A stretch of 42,069 nt of DNA from an uncultured archaeon (GCA_964447495.1 CAYUTF010000016.1:11396-53464), one strand, 5' to 3'. Positions 2,759 to 37,151 are shown, counted from the first letter of the stretch. The notes: generated from the sequence alone by a model not told the origin. Numbers and translations are program-made.

Positions 2759-2774
2759 GCGAACTCGAGTTCGC
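2759..2774. repeat. palindrome copy 1, GCGAACTCGAGTTCGC
   Basis: Perfect 16-bp inverted repeat at the gene junction; core lies 16 nt upstream of the ATG at 2743. Confidence 0.95.
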
Positions 2775-3190
2775 TATTCATTACTTAATATCAAATCCCT
2801 AGGAATAACTTCAATACTTTCTAAAAAACAACCATTACAAGCAGAATCAATATCATTAACAAAATAATTTAACATTTTACAACCTTGTAATAAAAATGAA
2901 AAATTTTCTTTACCACCATCTATATTAATAAAATACAATTTTATATCAAAATTATTACCATTAAAGTATTCTTTAAAAACATAAAATAATGAATTAAAAA
3001 GATTACCTTCTTCATCTTTCTTCATTGCTGATTCAATTATAACATTATTACATATACATCCTCCTTTTTCCATTCCGTGTCCTATGCCAATTCCAGATAT
3101 CCTTGACACACCATATTCCTTACCTGAAATTACCAACACAAATCTACATGATTGTATAAATTCAATTTTTCCTGTTTTCATTTCCCACAT
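2774..3190 (-). CDS. divergent T4 gp19-like tail-tube-fold protein
   Basis: Pattern RFVLVISG..GVSRISG...FDIKLYF...FLLQGCKMLNYFVNDIDS...LESIEV follows the gp19-family layout seen in the two tubes at 28299-29405. Confidence 0.5.
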   Translation of the reverse strand: MWEMKTGKIEFIQSCRFVLVISGKEYGVSRISGIGIGHGMEKGGCICNNVIIESAMKKDEEGNLFNSLFYVFKEYFNGNNFDIKLYFINIDGGKENFSFLLQGCKMLNYFVNDIDSACNGCFLESIEVIPRDLILSNE

Positions 3191-3555
3191 TCATCTGCTT
3201 CTTCACAACTTTTTGCCTTAGCAACACACTCAGGTTCTATAGAAAAATCACCTTCATCCATTATCCTTTCGCAAACATCTTCACAAGCCACATCATCACT
3301 ATTACCAAACTCCTCATCTGGTCCTGGAGACCCCTCAGAGCCATCACAACCCATACTTCTTAAATTATCACACGCTCTCTCACAAGGTGTCTTATCCTTT
3401 CTCTCATCACTATCAAAAGCTTCTGGAACAAGATTAAACGTATCAATGTCACTATCTATTTCTCCAGGTTCTGGAACAATAGGACTTGGCTTACACCAAG
3501 ATACAAACATCATCGAAGCAATAAAAATAAACACTTTCATCCTAAATTCATCCAT
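3178..3555 (-). CDS. Cys-rich acidic secreted protein or lipoprotein
   Basis: Hydrophobic N-terminus ending in Cys (MKVFIFIASMMFVSWC), CxxxC pairs, and a GPDEEFGNSDD acidic loop. Confidence 0.6.
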   Translation of the reverse strand: MDEFRMKVFIFIASMMFVSWCKPSPIVPEPGEIDSDIDTFNLVPEAFDSDERKDKTPCERACDNLRSMGCDGSEGSPGPDEEFGNSDDVACEDVCERIMDEGDFSIEPECVAKAKSCEEADECGK

Positions 3556-4373
3556 CCTTTAATAATAGTAAAATCTCTGCTTTTACTCGATGCAACATAA
3601 TCAGAATCTAACCAACAATAACCATAATCTCTCCAATATTTACCCCAACTATTCATCACCCTAAACTGTATATTACTTGAAACCACTCTATACCCAACAA
3701 TAACCATACAATGATTACCAACAATTACATCTGAAAATTTTGGTTTATAAATTACAGTATCACCAATTGGAGACATAAAAGAATCAGAAATCTGTGTACC
3801 AAAAATCACAGGATAACCATCACAAATTGCTGTCATTATAGCATTAATTCTATATTTACCTGAATCAAAAATAGCAAAATATTCTCCACCTTTCCTAGCA
3901 TCAGCTCTCATCCAAGTATTAAATATAGGTTTTCTGTTAACTTTATTTTTTATAAATGGCCAATCAATCTCATCAGGAACGCCATATTTCATTAATCCTT
4001 TACAACATGTCCTTATATATGTACCATCGTCTTTTAAGGGAATAACATCATGTAAAGCTCTTGAATTCCAATATAAAAACATTCTTGACGGATAAGAATA
4101 TTTATAATTATTTTTTTCATGTTGCTTTTTATTTTCAAGAATTCTTATAGCACCAGCTAATGCATTCCCAACACATGAAGAAGTATTCAATTGGTCAACA
4201 ACTTCTGAATATAATTCAAGAGATGATGTCTCAGGAAAAACGTCACCTTTATTTTTATAATCATAAACAAAATCTCTTTTATCATATGGATTAGGTATAA
4301 ATCCTAATCCTCTTCTCCTCCATAATAATTTTGTAGCAAAAAATTTCTTTATATTACCCATCACTTTTCTCAT
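3537..4373 (-). CDS. papain-like cysteine peptidase, family C1
   Basis: Catalytic motifs DQLNTSSCVGNA (oxyanion Gln, Cys), GNHCMVIVGY (His) and NSWGKYW (Asn); bacterial C1A-type N-terminal GFIPNPYDKRD. Confidence 0.92.
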   Translation of the reverse strand: MRKVMGNIKKFFATKLLWRRRGLGFIPNPYDKRDFVYDYKNKGDVFPETSSLELYSEVVDQLNTSSCVGNALAGAIRILENKKQHEKNNYKYSYPSRMFLYWNSRALHDVIPLKDDGTYIRTCCKGLMKYGVPDEIDWPFIKNKVNRKPIFNTWMRADARKGGEYFAIFDSGKYRINAIMTAICDGYPVIFGTQISDSFMSPIGDTVIYKPKFSDVIVGNHCMVIVGYRVVSSNIQFRVMNSWGKYWRDYGYCWLDSDYVASSKSRDFTIIKGWMNLG

Positions 4374-4581
4374 TTTTCAATATTTTATCTTCCATCAATT
4401 CCAATGCTACAGATATAACAGCACCAGTTTCAATCCCAACTTTTTTGGATATCTCCTGAACTTTATGCCATGTCTCAACAGGGAATAACACCATAACAAT
4501 TCCATCCATACTATCAATATCAATATGCTCTATAACATCTCCTTTTTGTAACTTATTACTATGTTTAGCTTTCATAACCAT
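4354..4581 (-). CDS. hypothetical protein
   Basis: 75-aa ORF overlapping the protease gene start. Confidence 0.45.
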   Translation of the reverse strand: MVMKAKHSNKLQKGDVIEHIDIDSMDGIVMVLFPVETWHKVQEISKKVGIETGAVISVALELMEDKILKNEKSDG

Positions 4582-4594
4582 CTATTTTATACCT

Positions 4595-5383
4595 TCATCT
4601 TACCATCGATGGATCTATACCATTAATTTCTCTACCAGCACTTTTACCAAGTTCTTCATTGTCATCAAAAGAATATTTAGAAGGAGCCTCTTTGAATCCT
4701 TTAAACATAATTCCTTTTGCTGTTTGAACAATTTGTCTCAATGTAATTGATACAGTTGCTCTCCTTGGTGTTCCATCACGAAATGCCAATGTATAAGTAA
4801 CATCGCATCCTGTCATTATACAAAAAATCGCATCACCACCAGCCTCATTTAAACCAAAATTAGGAATATTCAAAATCATTACAGGAGGAGGAAAAGCTAT
4901 TTTTATATTCTCAATACTTTTATATGTTGGATAACAAAAACCTCTTAAAAAATGAACTTGTTCTTTAATATCAACATTATATGGTCTATTATCGCGTTCT
5001 TCTAATCGATTCGAACCAGGATCTGAATATGATAAAAATTGTTCTTTAGCTGACCTAGTTTTTACAGGCATCATAAATCTAGATAATTGAACATCAAAAC
5101 TAATTGTTCTACCATTGTTTGATGTCCATTGAGCAAGAGCATGAGATGCCCCTCCAACATCTCTCAATGACCATCCAATATCAATACTATCCTGTATAGT
5201 TTCTGGCCAATACTGAAGTGCTCTTTCACTAAAATCAAAATCATCTCCTGGATCTATTCCGGCTTTATATATTTTAGATGGGTCAGTTGGATCTACACCA
5301 GCAATTGTTAAAGATGCATACTGACCACCCTCTGGTCCATTCATTATCGCATCTATAATACCAGTAATTAATCCTATCGGCAT
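4595..5383 (-). CDS. contractile injection system tube-like / tube-initiator protein (Afp7/Pvc7-type N-terminal domain)
   Basis: QYWPETI...QWTSNNGRTISFDV...PPPVMIL...MTGCDVTYTLAFRDGTPRRATVSITLRQ matches the CIS-tube family signature. Confidence 0.7.
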   Translation of the reverse strand: MPIGLITGIIDAIMNGPEGGQYASLTIAGVDPTDPSKIYKAGIDPGDDFDFSERALQYWPETIQDSIDIGWSLRDVGGASHALAQWTSNNGRTISFDVQLSRFMMPVKTRSAKEQFLSYSDPGSNRLEERDNRPYNVDIKEQVHFLRGFCYPTYKSIENIKIAFPPPVMILNIPNFGLNEAGGDAIFCIMTGCDVTYTLAFRDGTPRRATVSITLRQIVQTAKGIMFKGFKEAPSKYSFDDNEELGKSAGREINGIDPSMVR

Positions 5384-5386
5384 AAA

Positions 5387-7849: not shown

Positions 7850-7855
7850 GTTTTA

Positions 7856-10117: not shown

Positions 10118-10142
10118 ATTTTACTTCCTTTTTATAACGAAA

Positions 10143-11596: not shown

Positions 11597-11614
11597 ATAC
11601 CTCTCATATTATTA

Positions 11615-18231: not shown

Positions 18232-18247
18232 ACGAACTCGAGTTCGC
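18232..18247. repeat. palindrome copy 2, ACGAACTCGAGTTCGC
   Basis: Intergenic; 14-bp core at 18233-18246, 18 nt upstream of the gp25 ATG. Confidence 0.95.
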
Positions 18248-21280: not shown

Positions 21281-24200
21281 TCAAACTGGTGGTGGTGTTC
21301 GCTCTCCAATAGTAGAAACACTTGTACTACCACCACTCATGATAACTGTTTGTTTTACACTTTCGTCAAGCATTCTTTTTAATAATTTCCTGGTCATAGC
21401 TCCTTCATTAGATACAGCTAAAACAACACTAGCAAGTCCTGGCAAAGTCATTGCAGCTTCAAAATTCTTTTTCACATTTATATCTGAATCTGCATCTACT
21501 GTAGTCTCTATCTTTCCACCAAGGTCTTTAACCATAGCTTTAGCAATAGATGTTAAAAACATCTTCTGTTCTGCAAGTTCTTTCATCTTTTGAGCATACG
21601 TATCAATAGTCAATATAACCGAATCATTAAGAGTCTCTTCAATAGCTCTCTTAATTATATCTGTACTATCAGTTATACCAAGAGCAAATTGTTCCATTGT
21701 AAAATAACCACCACGATATGCAGCGTTAGACTCTCCTTCACCAGCAAGAGGACCAGATTTTATAGGAGAATGTGCTATCATTCCATCTGTTATAAAATCA
21801 AGTCCATCATCAACAGATTGCCTACCTTCTTCTAATCCTGATGTCAGACCATTTATAAATTGCTCTGCTGTAGTCTTACCACCCAAAGTATATTTCTCAA
21901 CATTTGATTCTGTTTTATCAAGAATAAGTTCATTTTGAGCATCTGATAATAAAAATATTGCCTTTTCAAGAATTTTAACATCATCTTTATCTGGAAACCA
22001 ACTTTCCTTCTCTGCTTTAAGTGCCGATCTTAATCTAGCTAATTGACCTGCCATTTCTTCAGGTTTTTTCTGCCATGCCAATTTATACATTCCAAACTTG
22101 TCTTCATCTCCACCAGCTATTACCCCAGCTTCTGCTACTGCACCAGCAATAAACTTTGGACCGAATATAGATTCTGCCATTTTCCACCCAGCATAAGCAG
22201 CCAACGCAACAAGACCTGTACCTCCTGCAATAGTAGGATGTTCAGCTACAGCTTTTAAAAAAGCTATTCCAGCACTTGTACCAGCTCCAATCATTCCAGG
22301 TCCCAATGTAGCTAACATTGCTCCACCTACAACTCCAGCCTGACCACTAACACCTGTAATCTCCCCTAATTTATTCCAAGCCCATTTAATACCATCCCAC
22401 ATTGCACTGCCTACTATAGGAGCAGAATCTTTCAAAAAAGGAACAAAATCTTCTTTCCAAAATTTAATCATAGCTGGTTTCATATCTTCTTTCCAAAATC
22501 CAACTATTTTAGGTTTAATTTGAAATGTCCAAACACCAACAAACGTAGAAGAAAATCTATTCCATAATTCAACAACTTTATTCTTTAAATCATTAAATAC
22601 ATTATAAAATGGACCAAGTATTTTTCTTACAGAAGTATTATCCATAAACAATAAAGCTCCAATACCTCCAGCAGCAAGCAATGGAGCAAGTGGGCCAGCC
22701 ATTCCAAGCATATGCATTATTGGAGCAAGTTCACTTCCAAATTGTTTTACTGTATCAAATATTAATCCAAATTTTGAACCAAATTTTGCCGCATTCTTAG
22801 CTCCAACACCTGTATATTCAGCCAAAGATGAAAATAAACCACCAATACCCATTTGCTTAAATTGAGATAAAGCATTTATCCATGGTCCCCATGTTTTATC
22901 AGACCCTAATGCTTTAAGCTCCAAACCAGCTTCTCTCATTCCAGAAATTTGTTTCTTTACAAGACCTCTTACATTTTGCCTAGCTATACTTCTAATTGTA
23001 GTATCAAAAGCCTCTTTTGCACGGTCATATGTTTCTTGTAATGTTAAACCAGAACTATAAGCATCTTTTCCAAATTTTCTCAACGCACCAGACCCATCAA
23101 CGGCAACTTTTGACATTTTTTCTAATGCAGCAGTTCCTTGTTCTGTATTCGATGCTAAATATGAAAGTCCAACTGCCCCATCTCCTAATGCTCCTCCTAA
23201 TCCAGATAATGCCCTTTGAACCTGTGGTGATATATCATCTCCAAAACGAGCATAAACATTATTTACCATCTTCATACCAGCAACTACATCACGACTACCT
23301 GTTGAAATAACTTTTCTAGCGTCATCAAAACCAATACCAAGCCTCATTAAATATTTAAGCAATGGATTGTCTATCAAAGCACGCTCATCACCAATAGCTA
23401 AAGCTTTTTTTATGGCCACATCTTGATCTGCAAACATCTTCGCTACAGCATTTGCTTTTGTTATAGCTTCTTCCTGTGTACTTCCCATTTCTTTAAAAAC
23501 ACCAGACATTTTAGCCGATGATTCCATTAAACTAATTATTTCATCTGATGTTCTAGCCATTGATGGAGGCAATGTTTTAAATATATCTCCCAATTCATCT
23601 AATTGCGTTTTTGCATTTCTTACTGCTCCTACTCCAGTTCCAGCAACCTTCCCTATTGCCATTAAATTATCAAGCATTCTTGCAGCTTCTTTAGGTGAAG
23701 CTTTCCAACTTGTTGTCATATCACCTAGAATAGCAGAATACTCTTCCATCGGAACATTAGTAGTTTGAACAACTTTTACCCAATCTTTTGTAGACAATCC
23801 CAATTCATCCATAGCCTCTTTTGCGCTCTTATTAGCTACGTAAATTGATTTCATTGTCTCAGCAACAGCATCAGCAGATGTATTCATACCATAGGCCATA
23901 CTTGCCGCTTGACCAGCAAACTTCCTCATCTCCTTTCCTGATAAATTTAAAGATGCAGCAATTGGCTTCGTAGTCTGAATCATACTTACCATTGTTGCTT
24001 CTAAACTATTTGTTAAATTTCCAGTTTCACCTGTTAAACTTCTTATATTTGATGCAATATCAGCTACGTTAAAATTTAATACAGATCCTCTGATTTTATC
24101 AAATACAGACCTTAATTTCCCTATTTTCTTAGATGCATCATCGGCACCCTTACCCATATCGTCAAAAAAATCCTCTTTTTTTATTTTTCTTATAGCTTCA

Positions 24201-24316
24201 GTTTGTTCATCCAACCTATCGTTAATTTGCTGAAGACTTTTAGCTGCATTACTTATTCCTGCTGACATACCAGCATCAACAGCAGCCATATCAAACGCAA
24301 TTCCAAGAAATCCCAT
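21281..24316 (-). CDS. tail tape measure protein
   Basis: 1011 aa, A/G-rich helical protein with periodic W/F repeats, hydrophobic segments and an HSPIKSGPL motif; follows the chaperone gene. Confidence 0.85.
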   Translation of the reverse strand: MGFLGIAFDMAAVDAGMSAGISNAAKSLQQINDRLDEQTEAIRKIKKEDFFDDMGKGADDASKKIGKLRSVFDKIRGSVLNFNVADIASNIRSLTGETGNLTNSLEATMVSMIQTTKPIAASLNLSGKEMRKFAGQAASMAYGMNTSADAVAETMKSIYVANKSAKEAMDELGLSTKDWVKVVQTTNVPMEEYSAILGDMTTSWKASPKEAARMLDNLMAIGKVAGTGVGAVRNAKTQLDELGDIFKTLPPSMARTSDEIISLMESSAKMSGVFKEMGSTQEEAITKANAVAKMFADQDVAIKKALAIGDERALIDNPLLKYLMRLGIGFDDARKVISTGSRDVVAGMKMVNNVYARFGDDISPQVQRALSGLGGALGDGAVGLSYLASNTEQGTAALEKMSKVAVDGSGALRKFGKDAYSSGLTLQETYDRAKEAFDTTIRSIARQNVRGLVKKQISGMREAGLELKALGSDKTWGPWINALSQFKQMGIGGLFSSLAEYTGVGAKNAAKFGSKFGLIFDTVKQFGSELAPIMHMLGMAGPLAPLLAAGGIGALLFMDNTSVRKILGPFYNVFNDLKNKVVELWNRFSSTFVGVWTFQIKPKIVGFWKEDMKPAMIKFWKEDFVPFLKDSAPIVGSAMWDGIKWAWNKLGEITGVSGQAGVVGGAMLATLGPGMIGAGTSAGIAFLKAVAEHPTIAGGTGLVALAAYAGWKMAESIFGPKFIAGAVAEAGVIAGGDEDKFGMYKLAWQKKPEEMAGQLARLRSALKAEKESWFPDKDDVKILEKAIFLLSDAQNELILDKTESNVEKYTLGGKTTAEQFINGLTSGLEEGRQSVDDGLDFITDGMIAHSPIKSGPLAGEGESNAAYRGGYFTMEQFALGITDSTDIIKRAIEETLNDSVILTIDTYAQKMKELAEQKMFLTSIAKAMVKDLGGKIETTVDADSDINVKKNFEAAMTLPGLASVVLAVSNEGAMTRKLLKRMLDESVKQTVIMSGGSTSVSTIGERTPPPV

Positions 24317-24325: not shown

Positions 24326-24345
24326 TAACGAACTCGAGTTCGTTA
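24326..24345. repeat. palindrome copy 3, TAACGAACTCGAGTTCGTTA
   Basis: 20-bp perfect inverted repeat; overlaps the TAA of the frameshift product; core lies 12 nt upstream of the tape measure ATG. Confidence 0.95.
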
Positions 24346-26741: not shown

Positions 26742-26757
26742 TGTTTCACGTGAAACA
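26742..26757. promoter_or_regulatory. parS: parS centromere-like site TGTTTCACGTGAAACA
   Basis: Exact 16/16 match to the canonical chromosomal ParB/Spo0J binding palindrome; intergenic. Confidence 0.85.
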
Positions 26758-27426: not shown

Positions 27427-27427
27427 T

Positions 27428-27766
27428 TTATCCTCCAATTGGTCTCAATACTACTTTAGCACCTTTTTTAGTCCTTATGACATCAACGAACTCGAGTTCG
27501 TTCATATTTACAAACCGTTTCGCTACATGATTACCAATAGATAAAGCATGTCTACCTTCTAAAAGCATCCTTAGTGTCACTCTTCCACCTTTATGTACAA
27601 CTTCAAAAATATATCTATCAATGTCTCGTCCCTTTGTTGCACGTTCGCCCATGGATTTCAATGCCCTAAAAATACGTTTTTCATTATTAGATAAAACCTG
27701 TTCTTCCTTAACTATCAATGATTTATTATCAATAAATTTAGATAAATCATTTAAATATTTTGTCAT
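27428..27766 (-). CDS. hypothetical protein
   Basis: 112 aa, AAGGAG SD. Confidence 0.55.
   Translation of the reverse strand: MTKYLNDLSKFIDNKSLIVKEEQVLSNNEKRIFRALKSMGERATKGRDIDRYIFEVVHKGGRVTLRMLLEGRHALSIGNHVAKRFVNMNELEFVDVIRTKKGAKVVLRPIGG
27485..27502. repeat. palindrome copy 4, AACGAACTCGAGTTCGTT
   Basis: 18-bp perfect inverted repeat inside a CDS (encodes NELEFV); 60 nt upstream of the next ATG. Confidence 0.95.
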
Positions 27767-27808
27767 CTTACCGACTCCTTAATAAAAATTCAGTTTGATG
27801 CACCATAA

Positions 27809-28288: not shown

Positions 28289-28298
28289 ATTTATTACT

Positions 28299-28856: not shown

Positions 28857-28877
28857 TTATACACCGTAACGAAAATA

Positions 28878-29405
28878 TTAAGAATATTTCACTACAAATT
28901 TTTCAACAGCTAAATCAACCTCTCCTAATGAAACATCTCCAGCTGTAGAATCTAAATCTCCATTTGGTTTAGCACGAATAGCAAAACATTCTCCACATTC
29001 AATTCTACGAATATCATCACCAACTGTAGCTGATGTAGCTAAATCCATCTCAGACCTCTGATAATGATATATTATTACATCTGCTCGATATTCCGCACCT
29101 TCAACAGATGCCATAACCATATCATAGAATGTAGTATCACGTTTTGTAATACCTCTCATTAAAGTCAATTCTGATACAGTAGGTGGTCCAGGATATTTTT
29201 CTGTCCACTTAAAAATACCTTCCCTATATTCTGCTGCTTCAACAGACAATTCAGGAATTGTAACAGATTGAAATCCTGCTTGACCATTTGTATCATGTCC
29301 ATCACGGTCAGATTGCACACTAGGTTGAAATGGGTCACCCTCACCATTATTTGCAACCACATGATACCTGAAATTTTGCATAAAATCTGTATTAGCTGCT
29401 CGCAT
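28878..29405 (-). CDS. tail tube protein 1 (T4 gp19 family)
   Basis: DFMQNFRYHV, AGFQSVT, EYREG...KYPG...LTLMRG and DLDSTAGDVSL. Confidence 0.92.
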   Translation of the reverse strand: MRAANTDFMQNFRYHVVANNGEGDPFQPSVQSDRDGHDTNGQAGFQSVTIPELSVEAAEYREGIFKWTEKYPGPPTVSELTLMRGITKRDTTFYDMVMASVEGAEYRADVIIYHYQRSEMDLATSATVGDDIRRIECGECFAIRAKPNGDLDSTAGDVSLGEVDLAVEKFVVKYS

Positions 29406-29417
29406 TTTAATAACTCC

Positions 29418-30146
29418 TTATGGTCTGGCCATTCCAGGAGGCCGACTATCTCTACCTAAAGATGTAGCAAAATCAAAAATACTTGCTGACCATCCGTTTT
29501 CTAAAATAAACATTATTCTACCAGCATCTGACAATGTACCAGTACCAACTACTTTAAACTTACAACCAGGAGCAACAATAATCCCAAAATCCTTCCATTC
29601 CCTAAATGCGTTTCCTGATACAGGAGTCTCACTACCAGCAAATACAGACTTAGAATCTCTATCAACGATATAAAATGAAACAGCAGTAATACCAGGTGCA
29701 GTAATCAAAACATCTCTAACTTTGAAACCATCTACAGCAATTGTTTCATCTATATCAATCAATCCACCATCTGCTAAATTATAATATCGTCTATAACGAC
29801 CCCTTCTAACAGTTTCTCCTGAATCAAAATCTCCTATTAATGTAACAATGCCATCAACATCACAAGTAGCACCAGATGGCGCTCCTGTAATAGTCAATCC
29901 ATCAGTAGGTGCAATTCCACTTGTCAATACAATAATCATACTTCCAGTAGTTCCATTATCCACCAATACAGCTAACAGTCCTGTTCCACCAGTCCAAGAT
30001 AATGCATCACCAACAACAAATGGACCACTTGACTCATTGTCATAATCAAACGAATATTCTGTACCGACTGGGTCAACACCTGATAATGACGCACCTATCA
30101 AAAATTCATGAATAAGAACATTAGGAATTACTTTTATGTTACCCAT
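29418..30146 (-). CDS. putative virion structural protein
   Basis: 242 aa between sheath and tube; GPFVVGDAL / TITGAPSGAT module resembles repeats in the 823-aa protein. Confidence 0.5.
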   Translation of the reverse strand: MGNIKVIPNVLIHEFLIGASLSGVDPVGTEYSFDYDNESSGPFVVGDALSWTGGTGLLAVLVDNGTTGSMIIVLTSGIAPTDGLTITGAPSGATCDVDGIVTLIGDFDSGETVRRGRYRRYYNLADGGLIDIDETIAVDGFKVRDVLITAPGITAVSFYIVDRDSKSVFAGSETPVSGNAFREWKDFGIIVAPGCKFKVVGTGTLSDAGRIMFILENGWSASIFDFATSLGRDSRPPGMARP

Positions 30147-30155
30147 GTTTTACTC

Positions 30156-32948
30156 CTACGATGTAAGAGAACGCTGTTGAAAACGAAATACAATGAATTC
30201 AGCCGGCTTATTAGGCGCAATCCCAACATCACAGAATACAAGACCTTGGTCCACTGTATTCTGAGGATTATTTGACCTGTCACAAATAACAAAAAATGAT
30301 TCTTCTGGACTATTACCAGCAAAATATCCTGACTGATAAAGACCCAATAAGAACGATACAACTTGTGTCCTAATAGCACTCCATAAAGATGAACCATTAT
30401 TTTTAAATATATGCAAATGTGTACTATTAAACACTGACTTCTCAACAAACATAAAGAGTCTTCTCATTTGAATATATGGCCATTCACCACCAGCTATATC
30501 CAATGTTCTAGCACCCCATACAACCCGTCCAGTATGCGACCAACTAACTAATGCATTAATCTTTTCTTTATATATAATCCCAACCTGTGTATCAGTAAGT
30601 TCAACTTCTAAACCTGTTGACCAATTTAGAACACCTTTTTCAGTTCCAGCAGGAGCTTCTCCAACATTTTTCATTGTATCTGTTCTTGCGTAAACCCCAG
30701 CTATATGACCTCCAACAGGAATATCCTGATTTACACCACTAACAGGGTCCTTAATTTTTATGTGCGGATAATAAAGAGCAGCATATGAAGTATTCTTATT
30801 CAATTGGAATTTTTTCCAATTAACTGCTTCATGATAGGTCAAACCATGAGGAACCGTCAAAATAACAAATTTATCCTTCACCAATTCAGCATATGTAATA
30901 AGTGCATCAGCAACATATGTATCTGTCTGAAAATCAGCAGCAACAAGTTGCATTAATGCATTCACTTTTCCAAAAGCATATATACCTTCCTGGTCAACCG
31001 CCAAAGATGGCCCAACCACATCATCACTTGAAACAGCCGTTCCATCAGACCCACCCGTTAATACTGTAGATATTTCATCAGATGGATTTGTATAATAATC
31101 AGCTGTTTGAGAATATGCTCCAACTGGTGCCGCAGAAGGATTACCCTCAATTTTCCATGTTAAATCAACAACACCAGTTGTATAATTAACAGTATTTACA
31201 CCAGAAACAAGATTAAGCGAAAACTTAGCAGGATACCCAGTTGCTTGAGTATCTGACATTACCATATTCCCATCCGCATCATCCTCCAATGCAATTGGAA
31301 CTGCATATATACAACCAAACTTTATTTCTGACCCAACAACAGTAACATCAGTTGACCATGCCGCTACTTCCTGTATTGTAATCAAATCATCAGTTGTAGG
31401 GCTTGCACCAGTAATTTGACCAGTCGTATAATTAATAGTAGCTAATTTACCTGATACACCATCCCATAAATTACCTGAACCATCATCTATAACATGAATA
31501 GTTGCAGGACCAGCAATAGTCAATTCCATTACAACAGAACCAGGAACAATCTGAACCGGATTTGATGCATTACCAGGTGATATTACAGATTCTTCACCAC
31601 CAGAATCAGCAGTACCTATCCCTATCTTTGTTGATGCTTCAATAACAGCATATAAATCACCAATTAACCATGTAACAGCACCACCTGTTAAAATACCTGT
31701 AATTGTTGTAGCCGTATTAGCTGTAATAACAGCAGAAGCTCCTTTTGATATGTTTACAACAATTTTACCAACTAAATTATCTACTGCCCCACCACCCGTA
31801 AAATTTGCTCCAGAATCTGTAAGAACGGCATTATCTGATGTAGCAGCTCCAGTAAAAGACACTAGTCCATCAGCCATTTGAAAATTCATATTCAAAGTTT
31901 TCTCAAATGGCGCATTTGCCAATGTATATTCCCAAGCCTTTATTGTTCCGTCATATGCTACAGGAGGAGTAGAAGTACTACCTTGTGGTAATTGAGTATC
32001 AGAAATATCCTCAGACGTAATTTGTGTTCCTGCAAGCGCTGTAGGATTCATTCCGTTTCCATAATCAACTACTTCGATATAATCAGACCCAGCACCATCA
32101 GCATTTATTACTGTAACAACATAATTAGGATCATCTGAATCATCAAATACAAGATCTGCCCATGTTTCTACAATAGACCATGACCTATTTGTTGCATCAT
32201 AATTTACATCCTCTTCTACAATAACTGTAAATCTTGTCCACCTAGCTTCAGCCTGAACAAGATAATCATCACTTCCAGGAATTATCCTTACTCTGAAATA
32301 ATTCCCAGCCAATCCTGGCCATACCATTCTAAATCTAAATATCGTATAATTATATTCAGCAACAATATAATCTGTAGTACCTATAAATTGACCAGGTGTA
32401 GTCAACTCTACATGAATTTCACCTGTTTCCATATCAATAGAACCAGTACCACCATCAGCTGAAACACCCGATGTTGTATCTAACGTTAACACACCATCAG
32501 CATCAGCAACAAATACATTTTGATTTGCTGGTGTACCAGAATTTGTAAACGTCAATGTCAATGTAGCAGGAACAACCGGAGAATGATCTAATTCCAAATC
32601 ATAAATTCCTGTTCCTTCAGCAGTATTCGATACATTTTCACTTGATACTGTTGCAGCAAAATCCCAATAAGCTATTGCAGCATCACTAGCTACAACCCTA
32701 ACAAAATACAAAACTTGACCACCATTAGAAAAGAAAGCAAATGCTTCATGTGCTGACAATCCTTTCTCGGTAAAGCTACCAAATCTATTAGAAAATTCTT
32801 GAAAACTTGTTGAAATAATAGGCTCATTAATTGGACCTTTTGTTGAAAAACCAATAAGCCCCAAATTAGATGTCGAAACACCAGTAATCGGCCCAGGACT
32901 ACTAGGAACCTCTTGAATATACACTCCAGGATATGTGTAATCAGTCAT
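30156..32948 (-). CDS. tail sheath protein with large insertion domains
   Basis: N-terminal YPGVYIQEV...GFSTKGP; C-terminal YAALYYP, GHIAGVYARTD, VVWGARTL, YIQMRRL and GIAPNKPAEFIVFRF. Confidence 0.96.
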   Translation of the reverse strand: MTDYTYPGVYIQEVPSSPGPITGVSTSNLGLIGFSTKGPINEPIISTSFQEFSNRFGSFTEKGLSAHEAFAFFSNGGQVLYFVRVVASDAAIAYWDFAATVSSENVSNTAEGTGIYDLELDHSPVVPATLTLTFTNSGTPANQNVFVADADGVLTLDTTSGVSADGGTGSIDMETGEIHVELTTPGQFIGTTDYIVAEYNYTIFRFRMVWPGLAGNYFRVRIIPGSDDYLVQAEARWTRFTVIVEEDVNYDATNRSWSIVETWADLVFDDSDDPNYVVTVINADGAGSDYIEVVDYGNGMNPTALAGTQITSEDISDTQLPQGSTSTPPVAYDGTIKAWEYTLANAPFEKTLNMNFQMADGLVSFTGAATSDNAVLTDSGANFTGGGAVDNLVGKIVVNISKGASAVITANTATTITGILTGGAVTWLIGDLYAVIEASTKIGIGTADSGGEESVISPGNASNPVQIVPGSVVMELTIAGPATIHVIDDGSGNLWDGVSGKLATINYTTGQITGASPTTDDLITIQEVAAWSTDVTVVGSEIKFGCIYAVPIALEDDADGNMVMSDTQATGYPAKFSLNLVSGVNTVNYTTGVVDLTWKIEGNPSAAPVGAYSQTADYYTNPSDEISTVLTGGSDGTAVSSDDVVGPSLAVDQEGIYAFGKVNALMQLVAADFQTDTYVADALITYAELVKDKFVILTVPHGLTYHEAVNWKKFQLNKNTSYAALYYPHIKIKDPVSGVNQDIPVGGHIAGVYARTDTMKNVGEAPAGTEKGVLNWSTGLEVELTDTQVGIIYKEKINALVSWSHTGRVVWGARTLDIAGGEWPYIQMRRLFMFVEKSVFNSTHLHIFKNNGSSLWSAIRTQVVSFLLGLYQSGYFAGNSPEESFFVICDRSNNPQNTVDQGLVFCDVGIAPNKPAEFIVFRFQQRSLTS

Positions 32949-32974
32949 TTTTTACTCCATGTTGCCAAGCCGAT

Positions 32975-33439
32975 TTAACGGCGTCTCTTTATTTTTATTT
33001 TTTTATCAGTATCTTCTGACAACTCTTCAACTTTATCAACCTGGTCAACATCAAGAAATTCTTTCCCTTCAACTTTTATGTTTTCAACTAATTGTTGCTC
33101 TCCTTCTGTCAATTCAACACTAAACTTAGATTCTGGAGGAATATCTTTTGATACAGTAATACCTTTTTCAGCAATTATCTTAGCCATTTTCGATTTAGGC
33201 ACCACATCTTTTACTGTTTTTGTAGAAATTTCTTTTTTATCTACTTCTAAATTCTTTGGCCTACTCGTTCTACGCAAAAAACCTCTTCTACAAAGCGATT
33301 TAAATTCAATTGTAGATTCATCTATAATTTCAACTTTTGTATTTGGACGAACAGAAACAGAACGCCCCTTCTCTATCATTATCGGCCTAACTACTTTCCC
33401 TGAATAATAATACCAAGGCATATTAATCCTCCATAACAC
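32975..33439 (-). CDS. hypothetical protein
   Basis: 154-aa ORF between the terminator-like gene and the sheath. Confidence 0.5.
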   Translation of the reverse strand: MLWRINMPWYYYSGKVVRPIMIEKGRSVSVRPNTKVEIIDESTIEFKSLCRRGFLRRTSRPKNLEVDKKEISTKTVKDVVPKSKMAKIIAEKGITVSKDIPPESKFSVELTEGEQQLVENIKVEGKEFLDVDQVDKVEELSEDTDKKIKIKRRR

Positions 33440-34130
33440 TAACTGGAACGCCTAATTGAACACTAGAATATGGATCTATCATTGCAGGAGAACAAATTCC
33501 ATCAAAAGTATCAATCTCACCACGCACAGTAAAAGATAATGTCCAAGCAGCCGTCCTATCAGCAATATCAGCTAATTCTGATGCGTTAGAATATGACATG
33601 TCTCCAGTATCATATTCCCTTATATCTCCTAAACTATCAATAACTTTAAAATTAAACCATGGTGGTCTCATTTTTTTCATTACATGAGCCATCATTTTAT
33701 TAACTTCTTGTTTTCTCTCTGCATAAATAATCAAATCAAACGACAAATCATATGGGTCTGGCCTAACCTGTTCTTCATATTTACTATATCCTGCTATTGT
33801 ACCATTATCACCGTAAATAGGAATAGCATCTTTTGCCGGAGACCTCCCCACAGTACCAGCATATGGCTGTCTATCGAATGCATCATTCATACTATTTGAT
33901 TTGAAAACAAATGATGGAACAATAAAATCCTGAAATTCATCATCAGGAGAATCAAAAAAAACAGGAACCTTATTTTGAAATCTCTCAATATCTGTATTTA
34001 AACCACTCACATCCACAACATACTGTGCTCTTAGACTTCCGTCAATAGTATAATACACAATCTCAGCACCGATTGTGAGCATGCACCCTAAATCAAAATC
34101 TCTAATATCTAAGGTGCCTATTACTGTCAT
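33423..34130 (-). CDS. putative tail terminator / completion protein (gp15/Afp16-like)
   Basis: AFDRQ...PYDLSFDLIIYAE...WTLSFTVRGEID layout; position upstream of the sheath. Confidence 0.55.
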   Translation of the reverse strand: MTVIGTLDIRDFDLGCMLTIGAEIVYYTIDGSLRAQYVVDVSGLNTDIERFQNKVPVFFDSPDDEFQDFIVPSFVFKSNSMNDAFDRQPYAGTVGRSPAKDAIPIYGDNGTIAGYSKYEEQVRPDPYDLSFDLIIYAERKQEVNKMMAHVMKKMRPPWFNFKVIDSLGDIREYDTGDMSYSNASELADIADRTAAWTLSFTVRGEIDTFDGICSPAMIDPYSSVQLGVPVSVMED

Positions 34131-34141
34131 TAATCACTCTT

Positions 34142-34157
34142 ACGAACTCGAGTTCGC
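34142..34157. repeat. palindrome copy 5, ACGAACTCGAGTTCGC
   Basis: Intergenic; core at 34143-34156, 12 nt upstream of the ATG at 34130. Confidence 0.95.
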
Positions 34158-34162
34158 CTAAA

Positions 34163-34420
34163 TTACTCAGAATTATCTTCTTTATCTTTAGATTGTATAG
34201 ATGTCTGTACATTATCGTCACATCCATCGCAATCTATACCTATAATACCATCTTCAGCTGCTTTATTTATAAAATCATAAACCTTTTCTAGTTCTCCTCT
34301 GCTTCTATATAAAGCTCTTCCCATTAAATCATTTTCTACACCTAACAAAGTAATATTCAAATCATCTACTCTTGTAACTTTATCCTTGCCTGAATCAGTA
34401 TTATCAACCGCTTTTGTCAT
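34163..34420 (-). CDS. hypothetical acidic protein
   Basis: 85 aa, GAGGTG/AAGG SD. Confidence 0.5.
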   Translation of the reverse strand: MTKAVDNTDSGKDKVTRVDDLNITLLGVENDLMGRALYRSRGELEKVYDFINKAAEDGIIGIDCDGCDDNVQTSIQSKDKEDNSE

Positions 34421-34436
34421 CCTTCACCTCTCAACG

Positions 34437-35303: not shown

Positions 35304-35613
35304 ATAAGGCTGTTACTTGAAATGTTGCTGTATTACCACGACCAGTCCAACCAGGCATCTCAACATATGCTTGAATTCTATATGGACCTGCCTGGTCAAA
35401 ATCACCAACCTGAACAACATATTTAATACTTGTTGTTCCATAAATAGAACCAACCCATATAACTATAGTGCCATCTGGCTTTTCAACAATCAAATTTGTA
35501 ACCGTAGCTCCAGCATCTACCAAATCAACACAAGTATCAACAGTTATTTCAGTCCCTACATCACCAATATAATATTTACCATCAAGATCACAATTAGAAC
35601 AAACTGTAGACAT
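35296..35613 (-). CDS. Ig-like (BppU-type) virion domain protein
   Basis: VEKPDGT...KYVVQVGDFDQAGPYRIQAYV; likely ATG at 35613 overlapping the upstream TAA. Confidence 0.6.
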   Translation of the reverse strand: MSTVCSNCDLDGKYYIGDVGTEITVDTCVDLVDAGATVTNLIVEKPDGTIVIWVGSIYGTTSIKYVVQVGDFDQAGPYRIQAYVEMPGWTGRGNTATFQVTALFG

Positions 35614-35789
35614 TACGTACACTCCTCTAAATGAAATGCTGATGTCAAAATCAATCCTGGAGATATCATAGAAACCTCCTCTATCACCAATCCTATATTT
35701 GATACAATATTAACAGATATATTAAGATTAGATGTCAAATCTGCTTCTTTAGTAATTTTTGATACTAAACACAATCTTTCTTCTGACAT
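35613..35789 (-). CDS. small hypothetical protein, absent from the ORF track
   Basis: 58 aa, MSEERLCLVSKITKEADLTSNLNISVNIVSNIGLV...; TAATG coupling to the next gene. Confidence 0.45.
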   Translation of the reverse strand: MSEERLCLVSKITKEADLTSNLNISVNIVSNIGLVIEEVSMISPGLILTSAFHLEECT

Positions 35790-35935
35790 TGTGATACTAA
35801 TCCCAATCTAGTAGTAACTTTTGATACTAATCTTAAAATTTCTCTATAAATTTTTACTATTGCACCAGTAAACCCATAACCTCGAGTAATCAATAATTGC
35901 GTTGGACCTAATCCTCTTGTAACAATCCTATTCAA
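35765..35935 (-). CDS. small hypothetical protein, absent from the ORF track
   Basis: 56 aa from a TTG overlapping the upstream TGA: MNRIVTRGLGPTQLLITRGYG... Confidence 0.45.
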   Translation of the reverse strand: MNRIVTRGLGPTQLLITRGYGFTGAIVKIYREILRLVSKVTTRLGLVSQCQKKDCV

Positions 35936-36195
35936 CTTTTTATACCAATATCTTTTCTTAAATCATGTAAAACATCTACTAAATCATCACTAGCTTTTTC
36001 ATAAATCTTTCTAACTATTTCAAATCTCTTGTTATCAATTCCAGCTCTTTCAATACTTTTTGAAAAATGAAAAAGCTTACTGCCAAATGTTCCTCCACCA
36101 ATTTTCAACTTATCATTTATTTCTGTCCATGTTTTTTTTAATTCCTCAGATGGTGTTTTTCTTTTTTCTATCAATTCTCTCATATCTTTTGACAT
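35932..36195 (-). CDS. hypothetical protein
   Basis: 87 aa, AAGGAG SD. Confidence 0.5.
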   Translation of the reverse strand: MSKDMRELIEKRKTPSEELKKTWTEINDKLKIGGGTFGSKLFHFSKSIERAGIDNKRFEIVRKIYEKASDDLVDVLHDLRKDIGIKS

Positions 36196-36207
36196 ATCAA
36201 TTCTCCT

Positions 36208-36564
36208 TTAACTAACATCCCTAGCAAAAGCCCGTGCTGATTTCTCGGCATCTTTTATATTTCTTATTGTCTTACTACCATGTTTTACAAAAGGCGTTTT
36301 ATCATCACCAAAATTAGGCTCAAATATCTTATCACCAATTCCAAAACCACTTATTGCTCTATGTGACCATCCGTACCATTTTTGTTCTTTTTCAGAAAAA
36401 CCTATTGATTCAACACTGTCACTAGAATTACATTTTCTACCTATAATACCATGTTTTTCTTTAAAATTTTTAAGCCAGCCTAACTTTTCAACAATATCAC
36501 CAATTATTCTAACTGGCTTAGATTTCAACATCTCTGATTCATTAATATAATTCAAAGTTATCAT
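36208..36564 (-). CDS. hypothetical phage protein
   Basis: 118 aa; SIGFSEKEQKWYGWSHRA motif resembles a recurrent large-phage hypothetical protein (recalled, not verified). Confidence 0.55.
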   Translation of the reverse strand: MITLNYINESEMLKSKPVRIIGDIVEKLGWLKNFKEKHGIIGRKCNSSDSVESIGFSEKEQKWYGWSHRAISGFGIGDKIFEPNFGDDKTPFVKHGSKTIRNIKDAEKSARAFARDVS

Positions 36565-37151
36565 TTTTTATTCACCAACGAACTCGAGTTCGTTTTTATT
36601 TCTATCTGTGGATTAGGGACTACAATATTATCATTATAAAACATCTGTGTAATAATAACAGTTGCCAAAACAATTCCAACAACAAAAACGATAATCATCC
36701 ATGGTAACATTTTTAAAATTAATATCTTAAATGGTATTTGATTAAGCATCGCATCATCAACAGCTTTCTTCATCCTCAATGCATGAATATCTAAAACTCC
36801 ACTATCTTCATTTGTTTTAGACAAAATCATATCTTTAAAAGCTATAAGACGATTCAACTGTTTTTTTATTCCACTAATATCATCTGATGCATTACACAAA
36901 TCCTGTTTTCTCTCAACACTTCTTATTCTAACATCATGATCTTTTATCGTTTTTTTATTATCATCAACCTTCTCTCCTTGTGCTTCTAGAAAAGTCTGTG
37001 TCTCTATAGCAATTCTCTCTAATGATTGAAGAGTAATAGCTTGACGCTTAGTAACTTCTGATAAATCCTCATATAGAGTTCCTAAATATCGGATATCATA
37101 TTCATCACTCTTTTTCGACATCTTTTTGTTCTCTCCAAGATGACGTTTCAC
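36561..37151 (-). CDS. coiled-coil protein with C-terminal transmembrane helix
   Basis: Heptad-like region followed by LPWMIIVFVVGIVLATVIIT. Confidence 0.6.
   Translation of the reverse strand: MKRHLGENKKMSKKSDEYDIRYLGTLYEDLSEVTKRQAITLQSLERIAIETQTFLEAQGEKVDDNKKTIKDHDVRIRSVERKQDLCNASDDISGIKKQLNRLIAFKDMILSKTNEDSGVLDIHALRMKKAVDDAMLNQIPFKILILKMLPWMIIVFVVGIVLATVIITQMFYNDNIVVPNPQIEIKTNSSSLVNKK
36577..36594. repeat. palindrome copy 6, AACGAACTCGAGTTCGTT
   Basis: 18-bp perfect inverted repeat in the last codons of a CDS; core lies 14 nt upstream of the ATG at 36564. Confidence 0.95.

What the first reader, a model, noticed from the sequence alone, without database searches (positions are those of the whole stretch)
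2759..36594. Six identical palindromes RCGAACTCGAGTTCGY, mostly just upstream of start codons: candidate undescribed cis-regulatory system
Seen: the 14-bp core CGAACTCGAGTTCG occurs exactly at 2760, 18233, 24329, 27487, 34143 and 36579. Every copy has a 5' purine and a 3' pyrimidine, and some extend to 18-20 bp. The core has three CpGs in DNA that looks AT-rich and CpG-poor. A rough estimate at 30% GC gives about 2e-5 expected copies per 42 kb. Five copies end 12-18 nt before a minus-strand ATG (lipoprotein, gp25, tape measure, terminator-like and 36208-36564 genes); the sixth is 60 nt before one. Two are embedded in coding sequence, in different reading frames. Established: the layout fits the GAAC-N4-GTTC LexA (Cheo) box of Firmicutes and Actinobacteria, but natural LexA boxes vary in the spacer whereas TCGA is invariant here; 16 bp is also the length of parS and Noc sites. 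Inference, two models: (a) a DNA site for a dimeric phage protein (late-gene operator, phage-specific centromere, genome-organising or packaging site); (b) an mRNA hairpin (CGAAC-UCGA-GUUCG) next to ribosome binding sites, acting as a processing site or translational operator that tunes virion protein stoichiometry. In copies 2 and 5 the A/C flank mismatch becomes a G-U pair on the transcribed strand, which fits (b).
Basis: partly seen in the sequence, partly recalled or inferred. Interest (0 to 1): 0.9.

Follow-up and report, generated by a model that had tools for sequence, protein, structure and literature searches.

The report
SOS-box array in T4-like phage
A large T4-like phage carries about 28 identical copies of a 16-base palindrome that has the sequence of the binding site of the bacterial DNA-damage repressor LexA, set at gene boundaries and kept across a whole clade of related phages, which suggests that these viruses tie their whole genome to the host's damage alarm.

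Summary
CGAACTCGAGTTCG occurs 6 times in the window and 28 times (plus one 1-mismatch copy) on four contigs (168 kb) of one T4-like phage. Those contigs were mis-binned into an archaeal MAG.

The copies sit at the same positions in relatives whose flanks are only 68-80% identical. They are spaced more evenly than chance and always carry a 5' purine and a 3' pyrimidine. The two flanks do not co-vary, which is what a two-fold symmetric site on double-stranded DNA predicts and an RNA stem does not.

In more distant relatives (portal 41-85% identical, GC 35-68%) the arms CGAAC/GTTCG stay fixed while the central four bases change by lineage, and asymmetric centres occur in both orientations. Complete relatives carry 22-33 copies; an outgroup carries none.

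CGAAC-N4-GTTCG is the published SOS (Cheo) box of Bacillus and Staphylococcus LexA. Two relatives encode truncated LexA DNA-binding-domain proteins. An unrelated 38-kb myovirus from a different metagenome dataset carries the same 16-mer nine times.

Best reading: an array of LexA-family operators. Neither the binder nor its effect (roadblock silencing or LexA titration) was shown.

The parts
2759..2774 (.). Box copy 1 (G-CGAACTCGAGTTCG-C on the coding, minus, strand). It abuts the TAG stop of ORF 2774-3190 and ends 16 nt before the ATG of the lipoprotein-like ORF 2393-2743, directly 5' of its AGGAGG.
   Evidence: Kept in relative G002 and within 9 nt of the predicted place in the distant genome G165. 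Not testable in G164 or G167.
18232..18247 (.). Box copy 2.
   Evidence: Invariant in G002, G005 and G007, where flanks are 76% identical. Kept at the predicted place in all three distant complete genomes G164, G165 and G167.
24328..24343 (.). Box copy 3. It abuts a TAA stop and ends 12 nt before the ATG of the 1011-aa ORF 21281-24316, the tape-measure candidate.
   Evidence: Invariant where flanks are 71% identical. Kept in G164, G165 and G167 at offsets of 0 to -3 nt.
27486..27501 (.). Box copy 4. It lies inside the 3' end of ORF 27428-27766 and is read as N-E-L-E-F-V, 19 codons before the stop.
   Evidence: Kept in the near relatives G002, G005, G007, L153 and L154. Absent at the predicted place in G164, G165 and G167.
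34142..34157 (.). Box copy 5. It lies between ORF 34163-34420 and the ATG (12 nt away) of ORF 33423-34130, which lies upstream of the 930-aa sheath-like ORF.
   Evidence: Invariant where flanks are 76-77% identical and carry indels. Kept in G164, G165 and G167 at offsets of -1 to -2 nt.
36578..36593 (.). Box copy 6. It lies in the last 6 codons of ORF 36561-37151 and ends 14 nt before the ATG of ORF 36208-36564, which matches Pfam Tad6 (Thoeris inhibitor family).
   Evidence: Kept in G001, G005 and G007. Absent at the predicted place in G165; not testable in G164 or G167.

Best explanation
The palindrome is an operator on double-stranded DNA of the LexA (SOS or Cheo box) type. Its form is R-CGAAC-N4-GTTCG-Y, two 5-6 bp half-sites one helical turn apart. 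It would be read by a two-fold symmetric winged-helix dimer of the LexA family.

The binder would be the LexA of the still unknown bacterial host, a phage-encoded truncated LexA homologue such as two relatives carry, or both.

The phage keeps about 28 optimal copies, one every 5 kb or so. Most are wedged between a stop codon and the next ribosome binding site.

Inferred, not shown: occupancy of the array couples transcription of the whole genome to the SOS state of the cell. I favour a stack of elongation roadblocks that silence or slow the phage while LexA is intact, in the way mycobacteriophage stoperators work. The alternative is a decoy array that titrates LexA once the genome replicates.

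What is shown is the sequence identity of the site, its symmetry, its conservation and the LexA homologues in relatives. The binding itself, the identity of the binder in this phage and the regulatory outcome are all inferred.
For: 1. The sequence matches. CGAACN4GTTCG is the SOS box listed for Bacillus subtilis and Staphylococcus aureus (PMC9578287, Table 1, passage read). It is also the 'B. subtilis consensus Cheo-box' used to scan a jumbo prophage (PMC9700832, methods passage).

2. Across 60 portal-related loci the arms are fixed and the centre is lineage-specific: TCGA, TCAA/TTGA, TTAA, TCCA/TGGA, CCAG/CTGG, CCGG, ACGT/ACGA. These loci span 38-85% portal identity and GC 35-68%. Boxes occur in loci from 85% down to 41%; 8 of the 60 loci show none.

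3. Four complete or near-complete relatives hold 33, 30, 22 and 26 copies, against 0-1 for the reversed control. The outgroup G168 holds 0. LIS04, LR756511 and RM378 hold 0, 1 and 0.

4. The symmetry points to DNA.
- Position -1 is R in 37 of 37 copies and +1 is Y in 37 of 37.
- Positions -2 and +2 are about 90% W.
- Position -3 is T in 59% and +3 is A in 51%.
- Left and right do not co-vary: Watson-Crick pairs at +/-1 number 21 observed against 18 expected (p 0.25), and at +/-2 number 12 against 15.3.
- R..Y also holds in 88 of 89 sites of G164, G165 and G167.
- Asymmetric centres face either way at the same 10-21 nt from + strand starts, 11 against 8 by my reading.
- The central step is mostly pyrimidine-purine (CG, CA/TG, TA).

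5. Within a genome the 6th and 9th bases are uniform and change together between lineages (T..A, C..G, A..T).

6. Purifying selection acts on the nucleotides.
- 47 of 50 relative sites carry the motif at the aligned place in this phage, 3 are not spanned by an alignment, and 0 align without it. Flanks are 68-99% identical. Many of those relatives are redundant with one another.
- 6 of 12, 7 of 18 and 8 of 15 testable sites are kept in genomes with about 50% portal identity, five of them in all three.
- One of those five lies inside a coding region and keeps its synonymous bases.

7. Two complete relatives encode LexA_DNA_bind proteins without a peptidase domain. G166 scores 60.7 bits (E 1.9e-17) and G167 scores 36.3 bits (E 7.4e-10). 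All 8 PDB matches of the G167 protein are LexA. In G167 the gene lies in a gene row headed by one of the clade-wide boxes.

8. G004, an unrelated 38-kb myovirus with terminal repeats and only 4 weakly shared proteins, carries 9 copies of the same 16-mer at gene boundaries. A shared host factor would explain this.

9. There is precedent. Phage GIL01 has no repressor of its own and is held by host LexA plus gp7, and its gp6 is a truncated LexA homologue (PMC6182141, abstract and section 17; PMC4551915, listing abstract).

10. Spacing is more even than chance. The CV of 33 gaps is 0.51, against 0.95 +/- 0.14 for random gene boundaries, and no simulation out of 5000 was as even.
Against: No LexA-family gene was found in this phage's four contigs or in G004, G164 or G165. 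The syntenic slot in this phage has no room for one.

The host is unknown, so nobody has seen a LexA that prefers TCGA with R/Y flanks.

Natural SOS regulons tolerate varied spacers (recalled). Here 28 of 28 exact copies share TCGA. Plain LexA recognition does not predict that.

Most copies do not overlap a recognisable promoter. About 30 sigma70-like TTGACA-N15-19-TAnnnT matches lie elsewhere. There is also no room for -35 and -10 elements between the box and the start codon. The position is therefore not that of a classical SOS operator, and the roadblock or decoy role is conjecture.

The Gram-positive-infecting T4-like phage LIS04 has no boxes.

Spacing in three distant relatives is less regular, with CV of 0.56, 0.64 and 0.84 and some pairs only 40-165 nt apart.

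A match between a 5+5 bp consensus and one of many known motifs can be coincidence. I estimate a few per cent; this is my judgement, not a computation.
Confidence: 0.55

Rival explanations
1. The box is an operator for a phage-encoded dimeric DNA-binding protein that is not a LexA relative, and the likeness to the SOS box is coincidence. A clade-specific regulator, perhaps one of the 34 conserved clade-only proteins, binds the array to time or insulate transcription units.
For: All the DNA-symmetry and conservation evidence fits equally well.

Spacer and flanks are uniform within a genome and change in step between lineages, as expected for a co-evolving phage protein.

No LexA homologue was found in this phage, G164 or G165.

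34 proteins are shared by this phage and three box-bearing genomes but not by the box-free outgroup. Several are small and match no family.
Against: G004 shares the identical 16-mer but no detectable DNA-binding protein with this phage.

The only well-conserved shared protein is a 107-aa Cys-rich protein, 70% identical between the two, with only 5 clusters in the protein collection. It is absent from the complete box-bearing relatives.

Two relatives do encode LexA-domain proteins, and the consensus is exactly the Cheo box.
Confidence: 0.22
2. The box acts as an RNA element. The transcribed hairpin (stem CGAAC/GUUCG, 4-nt loop) lies just 5' of ribosome binding sites. It would act as a processing or stabilising signal, or as a translational operator for a phage RNA-binding protein. 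Candidates are the clade-specific KH-domain protein and the NYN-domain nuclease.
For: All genes lie on one strand, so every copy is transcribed in the same sense.

Most copies end 12-18 nt before a start codon.

Two copies follow tRNA 3' ends, at 2 nt and 24 nt.

The hairpin folds at -7 to -11 kcal/mol, with z-scores of -0.4 to -2.4.

The phage encodes a KhpA/B-type KH protein, a NYN-domain protein and RNA-repair-like enzymes.
Against: The stem never varies by compensatory change within a genome. The flanks show base identity (R on the 5' side, Y on the 3' side, never Y..R) without pairing.

Loop variants occur in both orientations at the same distance from starts.

The single-base variants seen give C-A mismatches as often as U-G pairs, 2 against 2.

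No Rfam family matches.

The short intergenic spacers alone explain the closeness to start codons.
Confidence: 0.1
3. The box is a selfish or incidental repeat: a REP- or MITE-like palindrome spread by a nuclease or transposase, a target of a restriction-modification or methylation system (the centre contains TCGA and CTCGAG), or an assembly artefact.
For: The copies are identical.

The same motif occurs in two unrelated phages from different metagenome datasets.

The phage encodes an N6/N4 DNA methylase.

The only variants seen are CpG-to-TpG-type changes at the outermost base.
Against: None of 47 aligned sites shows a presence/absence polymorphism.

Sites are kept at the same nucleotide down to about 50% portal identity.

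The arms stay fixed while the restriction-site-like centre changes.

The motif stands in independent assemblies from many metagenome datasets and 18 studies.
Confidence: 0.03

Closest known systems
LexA SOS box (Cheo box) of Firmicutes, CGAAC-N4-GTTCG
   Same: The arms, the spacing and the two-fold symmetry are identical. The outermost C/G is the least constrained position here, as is usual for an operator edge. Some relatives encode the LexA DNA-binding domain itself.
   Different: There are 22-33 copies per phage genome, not one or two per promoter. In this subclade the spacer (TCGA) and the flanks (R..Y) are uniform. Most copies sit between a stop codon and the next RBS, not over a -35/-10 pair. 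No LexA and no host have been identified.
Phage GIL01 (Bacillus thuringiensis tectivirus): lysogeny held by host LexA plus gp7, late promoter activated by gp6, a truncated LexA homologue
   Same: A phage relies on LexA boxes rather than on a repressor system of its own. The 96-aa and roughly 146-aa LexA-domain proteins of G167 and G166 have the same truncated architecture as gp6.
   Different: GIL01 has a few boxes inside three promoters of a 15-kb linear plasmid prophage. Here a genome-wide array sits in 157-195 kb T4-like genomes. No gp7 homologue was sought or found. The lifestyle of this phage is unknown.
Stoperators of mycobacteriophage L5 and Cluster A phages (recalled, not read here)
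   Same: About 30 near-identical repressor sites are spread through the genome, mostly in short intergenic gaps next to stop and start codons. They are thought to block elongation genome-wide.
   Different: Stoperators are 13-bp asymmetric sites, oriented with transcription and bound by the phage's own immunity repressor. The present sites are palindromic and orientation-free.
Repeats with dyad symmetry of Cluster O mycobacteriophages and start-associated sequences of Cluster K (recalled, not read here)
   Same: Dozens of conserved short repeats lie near gene starts in a phage genome, and their function is unsettled.
   Different: Those are different sequences in different hosts, with no link to a known host regulator.
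parS/ParB and Noc or KorB-type dispersed palindromes
   Same: These are 14-16 bp palindromes present in several to many copies on a replicon.
   Different: The sequence is different. This phage carries the canonical parS 16-mer separately, with three exact copies (one in the window at 26742-26757) and one 1-mismatch copy, so the centromere role is probably taken.

Membership tests
LexA SOS/Cheo box | Sequence consensus CGAAC-N4-GTTCG (inverted pentamers, 4-bp spacer) | tested here: met
   28 of 28 exact copies in this phage. 22-33 copies in each of four complete or near-complete relatives. Consensus taken from PMC9578287 Table 1 and PMC9700832 methods.
LexA SOS/Cheo box | Bound by LexA of the host | not testable with these tools
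   The host is unknown. The MAG that holds the contigs is archaeal (Ribosomal_L24e hit) and has no LexA_DNA_bind match, so it tells nothing about the host.
LexA SOS/Cheo box | Overlaps the promoter (-35, -10 or transcription start) of the regulated gene | tested here: not met
   Most copies fill the 26-36 nt between a stop codon and the next ATG and have no sigma70-like hexamers. Only 3 copies lie just upstream of a TTGACA-type promoter.
LexA SOS/Cheo box | A LexA-family DNA-binding protein is available in the system | tested here: inconclusive
   LexA_DNA_bind proteins are encoded by relatives G166 and G167. None was found in this phage, G004, G164 or G165.
L5-type stoperators | Many copies in short intergenic regions across the genome | tested here: met
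   29 copies. Most lie 0-22 nt after a stop and 12-27 nt before a start. Spacing CV is 0.51.
L5-type stoperators | Asymmetric site with one orientation relative to transcription, bound by the phage immunity repressor | tested here: not met
   The site is a perfect palindrome here. Asymmetric centres in relatives face both ways, 11 against 8. No repressor was identified.
RNA hairpin elements (nut/boxB-like, processing sites) | Base pairing kept by compensatory changes; strand- and orientation-specific | tested here: not met
   No left-right covariation. Both orientations are used. No Rfam match in the window.
parS centromere | Matches the parS consensus 16-mer | tested here: not met
   The sequence is different. 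Canonical parS is present separately at C8:39865, C16:11197 and C16:38137, with a 1-mismatch copy at C26:2617.
REP/MITE-like mobile palindromes | Insertion polymorphism between close relatives | tested here: not met
   0 of 47 aligned relative sites lack the motif in this phage.
Truncated LexA homologues of phages (GIL01 gp6 type); applies to G166 and G167, not to the window | LexA winged-helix DNA-binding domain without the S24 peptidase domain | tested here: met
   Pfam PF01726 scores 60.7 and 36.3 bits in open frames of 155 and 96 aa. All 8 PDB matches are LexA. DNA binding was not tested.

The most novel reading that the evidence does not exclude
A deep clade of T4-like jumbo phages has no repressor of its own. 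Host LexA, bound at about 30 stoperator-like SOS boxes, holds these phages in a dormant state as episomes partitioned through parS. DNA damage then releases the whole genome at once. That would make them the first 'temperate' T4-type phages. The unrelated myovirus G004, which may share the host, would have converged on the same trick. The narrow-range Cys-rich protein shared by the two phages may be a LexA accessory factor that sets the TCGA preference, as gp7 does for GIL01.
Probability: 0.12. Interest if true: 0.9.

Novelty: new variant of a known kind. Interest (0 to 1): 0.72.

Why it matters
T4-type phages are the textbook example of strictly virulent viruses that run their own transcription programme. 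A conserved array of two to three dozen optimal LexA-type operators means one of two things. Either these phages hand a genome-wide switch to the host's DNA-damage regulator, or they soak that regulator up.

Either outcome would be a new way for large phages to sense or manipulate host stress. The first would give dormancy or paced expression. The second would give SOS induction without DNA damage.

The finding is directly testable with oligonucleotides and purified LexA. It also gives a simple sequence signature, 10 or more CGAAC-N4-GTTCG per 100 kb, with which to look for further phages of this kind and to guess their host group.

Tried and rejected
**Host regulon in the binned MAG.** The rest of the MAG (3.64 Mb) has one CGAAC-N4-GTTCG, and 153 genomes of its order have one copy of the 14-mer in all. 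The MAG proved to be archaeal, so these blanks say nothing about the real host. No CRISPR-like or other short matches link the phage contigs to the MAG.

**Cys-rich 107-aa protein as the universal binder.** Rejected. It has only 5 clusters and is absent from four complete or near-complete box-bearing relatives. It has no Pfam family.

**ParB as the binder.** No ParB_N match lies on the phage contigs.

**T4-type late promoter.** TATAAATA is not enriched upstream of genes, with 2 of 20 copies there. A promoter role for the box was considered and set aside. The site is symmetric and leaves no room for other promoter elements.

**Intrinsic terminator.** No U-run follows the box, and ordinary terminators exist elsewhere, for example after the capsid gene.

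**LacI-family operator.** This was my own comparison from memory. The half-site is one base longer, and the central CG is not kept in relatives.

**Host identification by a genome-contig scan with the 20-mer consensus.** It returned 5 single hits and nothing usable.

**Close-relative scans.** Scans with the Cys-rich protein and with the G166 LexA-domain protein found only their own or near-identical contigs.

**Expression.** No RNA holder is listed for the stretch. All runs were contigs, so no read ends could be examined.

**Tools.** Supplementary files of papers were not consulted. AlphaFold, Foldseek, complex prediction, the protein atlas and the search of protein representatives were not used.

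**Limits.** Gene calls are my own crude longest-ORF calls and are unreliable in the GC-rich relatives. 'Orientation' and 'distance to start' rest on them.

Full report
**Observation**

The 14-mer CGAACTCGAGTTCG occurs exactly six times in the window, at the stated coordinates. No further copies appear at up to two mismatches, and shuffles expect 0.01. All genes of the window lie on the minus, G-rich strand. On that strand each copy has a purine before it and a pyrimidine after it.

**Where the window comes from**

The window is part of contig C16 of a 3.8-Mb MAG. In that genome the motif occurs 28 times exactly and once with one mismatch. All copies lie on four contigs: C8 with 12, C16 with 9, C26 with 4 plus the 1-mismatch copy, and C80 with 3. 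The reversed control gives 0.

The four contigs total 168 kb. They have GC of 33-35% and a G-C skew of 0.32-0.40, and they carry their genes on one strand. Pfam finds a T4-type portal, prohead protease and Gp23 capsid protein, plus DnaB, RecA, SNF2 helicases, a DNA methylase and a NYN domain. ARAGORN finds 24 tRNAs and a tmRNA.

Relatives join the contigs in the order C8, C16, C80, C26. The nearest phage records in the collection share 24-35% capsid identity, so this is a deep, uncultured T4-like lineage.

The MAG itself is archaeal. It has ribosomal protein L24e, which rang only in the archaeal control genomes. The phage has a tmRNA, Shine-Dalgarno sites and about 30 TTGACA-N15-19-TAnnnT matches. 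The contigs are therefore mis-binned, and the bacterial host is unknown.

**The motif is real and under selection**

A complete scan of IMG/VR for R-motif-Y returned 78 stretches. All multi-copy hits belong either to relatives of this phage, at 68-93% nucleotide identity, or to one other contig, G004. Whole relatives hold 1-9 copies. The only variants are C-to-T or G-to-A at the outermost base, and none has two mismatches.

Of 50 relative sites, 47 align to a motif in this phage, 3 are not spanned by an alignment, and none aligns to a place without it. Flanks fall to 68-80% identity and carry indels. Many of these relatives overlap one another, so the 47 are not independent.

The stretch is held by contigs of runs from 18 studies of marsh, salt-marsh, rhizosphere and marine-sediment metagenomes. 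Contigs of four of these runs bridge three of the sites, though most differences in that call were not listed.

Spacing is regular. There are 33 gaps with a mean of 5.2 kb, a CV of 0.51 and a minimum of 1474 bp. Randomly chosen gene boundaries give a CV of 0.95 +/- 0.14, and none of 5000 simulations was as even.

**DNA or RNA**

I scored 37 sites, taken from this phage and G004.
- Position -1 is always a purine and +1 always a pyrimidine.
- Positions -2 and +2 are about 90% A or T.
- Position -3 favours T and +3 favours A.
- Left and right are statistically independent at every position.
- A..C pairs occur 5 times against about 6.5 expected.

Symmetric preferences without pairing are what two identical protein subunits on duplex DNA produce. 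A stem would also allow Y..R pairs and would avoid A..C.

In the complete relatives R..Y holds in 88 of 89 sites. Asymmetric centres (TCAA/TTGA, TCCA/TGGA, CCAG/CTGG) face either way at the same 10-21 nt before + strand starts, 11 against 8 (on my crude gene calls). The four single-base variants give U-G and C-A equally often.

An RNA hairpin would still form, at -7 to -11 kcal/mol, and no Rfam family matches. The closeness to start codons is explained by the very short intergenic gaps. Where a box is present the gap is stop, box, RBS, ATG, and nothing else.

**The decisive comparison**

The portal protein brought in 60 related loci, at 38-85% identity and GC of 35-68%. Most carry CGAAC-N4-GTTCG (52 of 60).
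- The arms are constant.
- The sixth and ninth bases are complementary and uniform within a genome. They are T..A in low- and mid-GC lineages, C..G at about 57-65% GC, and A..T at 64-68% GC.
- The central step is mostly pyrimidine-purine: CG, CA/TG or TA.

Four complete or near-complete genomes hold 33, 30, 22 and 26 boxes, against 0-1 for the reversed control. The complete outgroup G168, at 38% portal identity, holds none. LIS04, LR756511 and RM378 hold 0, 1 and 0.

Of this phage's sites that could be mapped, 6 of 12, 7 of 18 and 8 of 15 stand within a few nucleotides of the predicted place in G164, G165 and G167. Five stand in all three, including window sites 18233, 24329 and 34143. Another of the five lies inside the gene after the portal gene and keeps its synonymous bases even in GC-rich genomes.

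So some positions are ancient, others turn over, and the number per genome is maintained.

**What the site is**

CGAACN4GTTCG is the SOS box listed for B. subtilis and S. aureus (PMC9578287, Table 1). It is called the B. subtilis consensus Cheo-box in PMC9700832 (methods passage).

A six-frame Pfam search found LexA_DNA_bind in two complete relatives. G166 scores 60.7 bits and G167 scores 36.3 bits, in open frames of 155 and 96 residues, too short for a peptidase domain. All eight PDB matches of the G167 protein are LexA.

In G167 the gene lies between orthologues of two C26 genes, in a row of genes headed by one of the five clade-wide boxes. This phage has no gene in that slot and no detectable homologue. 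Neither do G004, G164 or G165.

**The second phage**

G004 is 38,257 bp with terminal repeats and has its own terminase, portal, sheath and baseplate genes. It shares only four weak or short protein matches with this phage. Yet it has nine copies of the same 16-mer at gene boundaries.

The one well-conserved shared protein is a 107-aa Cys-rich protein, 70% identical between the two phages, with a family of only five clusters. In both phages it sits next to a Bro-N gene and a D/T-repeat secreted protein. It is absent from the complete box-bearing relatives, so it is not the general reader.

A shared host factor is the simplest account of two unrelated phages bearing one operator.

**Mechanism**

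Most boxes lie in transcribed spacers and not over promoters. Three lie just upstream of early-type promoters. Several lie inside coding sequence. Ordinary terminators exist elsewhere.

I therefore infer a genome-wide effect of occupancy rather than promoter-by-promoter repression. The first possibility is a stack of roadblocks, as with stoperators (recalled). The second is titration of LexA by replicated genomes.

GIL01 gives the precedent. Host LexA plus gp7 holds that prophage, and gp6, a truncated LexA homologue, activates late genes (PMC6182141, abstract and section 17; PMC4551915, abstract in the listing).

The uniform TCGA and flanks in this subclade are not explained by plain LexA recognition. 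A cofactor, a phage-specific reader or methylation of TCGA could account for them, and none of these was tested.

**Novelty**

My searches found the SOS-box literature and the GIL01/pBtic235 work. They found no description of a genome-wide array of SOS-type boxes in T4-like or other large phages. The library does not hold most subscription journals, and supplements were closed.

**Verdict**

| Reading | Probability |
|---|---|
| Real and under strong selection | near certain |
| Protein-binding site on duplex DNA | about 0.75-0.8 |
| Read by a LexA-family protein | about 0.55 |
| Regulatory outcome | open |

Noticed in passing
window 26742-26757; also G000 C8:39865, C16:11197, and C26:2617 (1 mismatch): The canonical parS 16-mer TGTTTCACGTGAAACA occurs three times exactly and once with one mismatch on the phage contigs. 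It is kept in relatives. The rest of the MAG has none at up to 1 mismatch. No ParB_N gene lies on the four contigs, although relative G167 has a ParB-like ORF at 151239-152522 by my reading of its sequence. parS in a T4-like phage hints at plasmid-like partition or hijacking of host ParB.
   Followed up: partly
G000 as a whole (C97:5619-5792 for L24e): The MAG is archaeal (Ribosomal_L24e, no LexA). The four phage contigs carry bacterial hallmarks: a tmRNA, sigma70-like promoters and Shine-Dalgarno sites. They are therefore very probably mis-binned. Contigs C7, C77, C91 and C169 (GC 44-48%, skewed) also look foreign.
   Followed up: partly
G000 C80 (16 tRNAs), C26:33638-34079 (5 tRNAs), C8:47133-48875 (tmRNA and 2 tRNAs): The phage encodes 24 tRNAs by my addition of the rows and a tmRNA with tag peptide VRHNDSKVLAEAA. 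Two boxes follow tRNA 3' ends, at 2 nt and 24 nt.
   Followed up: partly
G000 C8:31834-34485: An 883-aa phage protein matches the major vault protein shoulder domain (E 4e-26) and a vault repeat. This is unusual in a phage.
   Followed up: no
window 36208-36564: A 118-aa ORF matches Pfam Tad6, a Type I Thoeris inhibitor (E 1.2e-26). It is a likely anti-defence gene, and it lies directly downstream of box copy 6.
   Followed up: no
G000 C8:52088-54124: A 678-aa open frame precedes the portal gene. It has a weak intein-splicing match at residues 42-215 and a box at codon 159. In G167 the homology begins exactly at the box, so this may be two genes or an insertion. Relatives G001, G006 and G009 do not align across it.
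   Followed up: partly
G004 29237-30451 and G000 C26:16281-16886: The HTH_36 protein of G004 carries three copies of an 18-residue peptide. That peptide also forms the C-terminus of a clade-conserved 201-aa protein of this phage, with 14 of 18 residues identical. It may be a shared docking peptide for a host protein, which would fit a common host.
   Followed up: no
G000 C16:2070-2393 (minus) and G004 33500-33988: A Cys-rich small protein with a CxxCxGxG-like motif is 70% identical between the two otherwise unrelated box-bearing phages. Only 5 clusters exist in the 5.8-billion protein collection. In both phages it sits beside a Bro-N gene and a D/T-repeat secreted protein.
   Followed up: partly
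G000 C8, C16, C26, C80 (for example C8:7406, 12048, 30595): About 30 matches to the promoter-like pattern TTGACA-N15-19-TAnnnT (many begin GTTGACAAA) lie on the coding strand. They are probably early promoters for host RNA polymerase. In the early region several lie 0.3-1.5 kb upstream of a box.
   Followed up: partly
G000 C26:7732 (oriented) and G003:24440: One box lies in a long intergenic region. It carries a different outermost-base change in this phage (T at position 1) and in its 95%-identical relative (A at position 14). Both are CpG-to-TpG-type changes. This may be a site in decay or a sign of cytosine methylation.
   Followed up: no
G000 C26:17602-17949, C26:22014-22388, C26:25519-25851: Clade-specific conserved small proteins include a KhpA/B-type KH domain protein, a GroES homologue and a KTSC-domain protein.
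   Followed up: no
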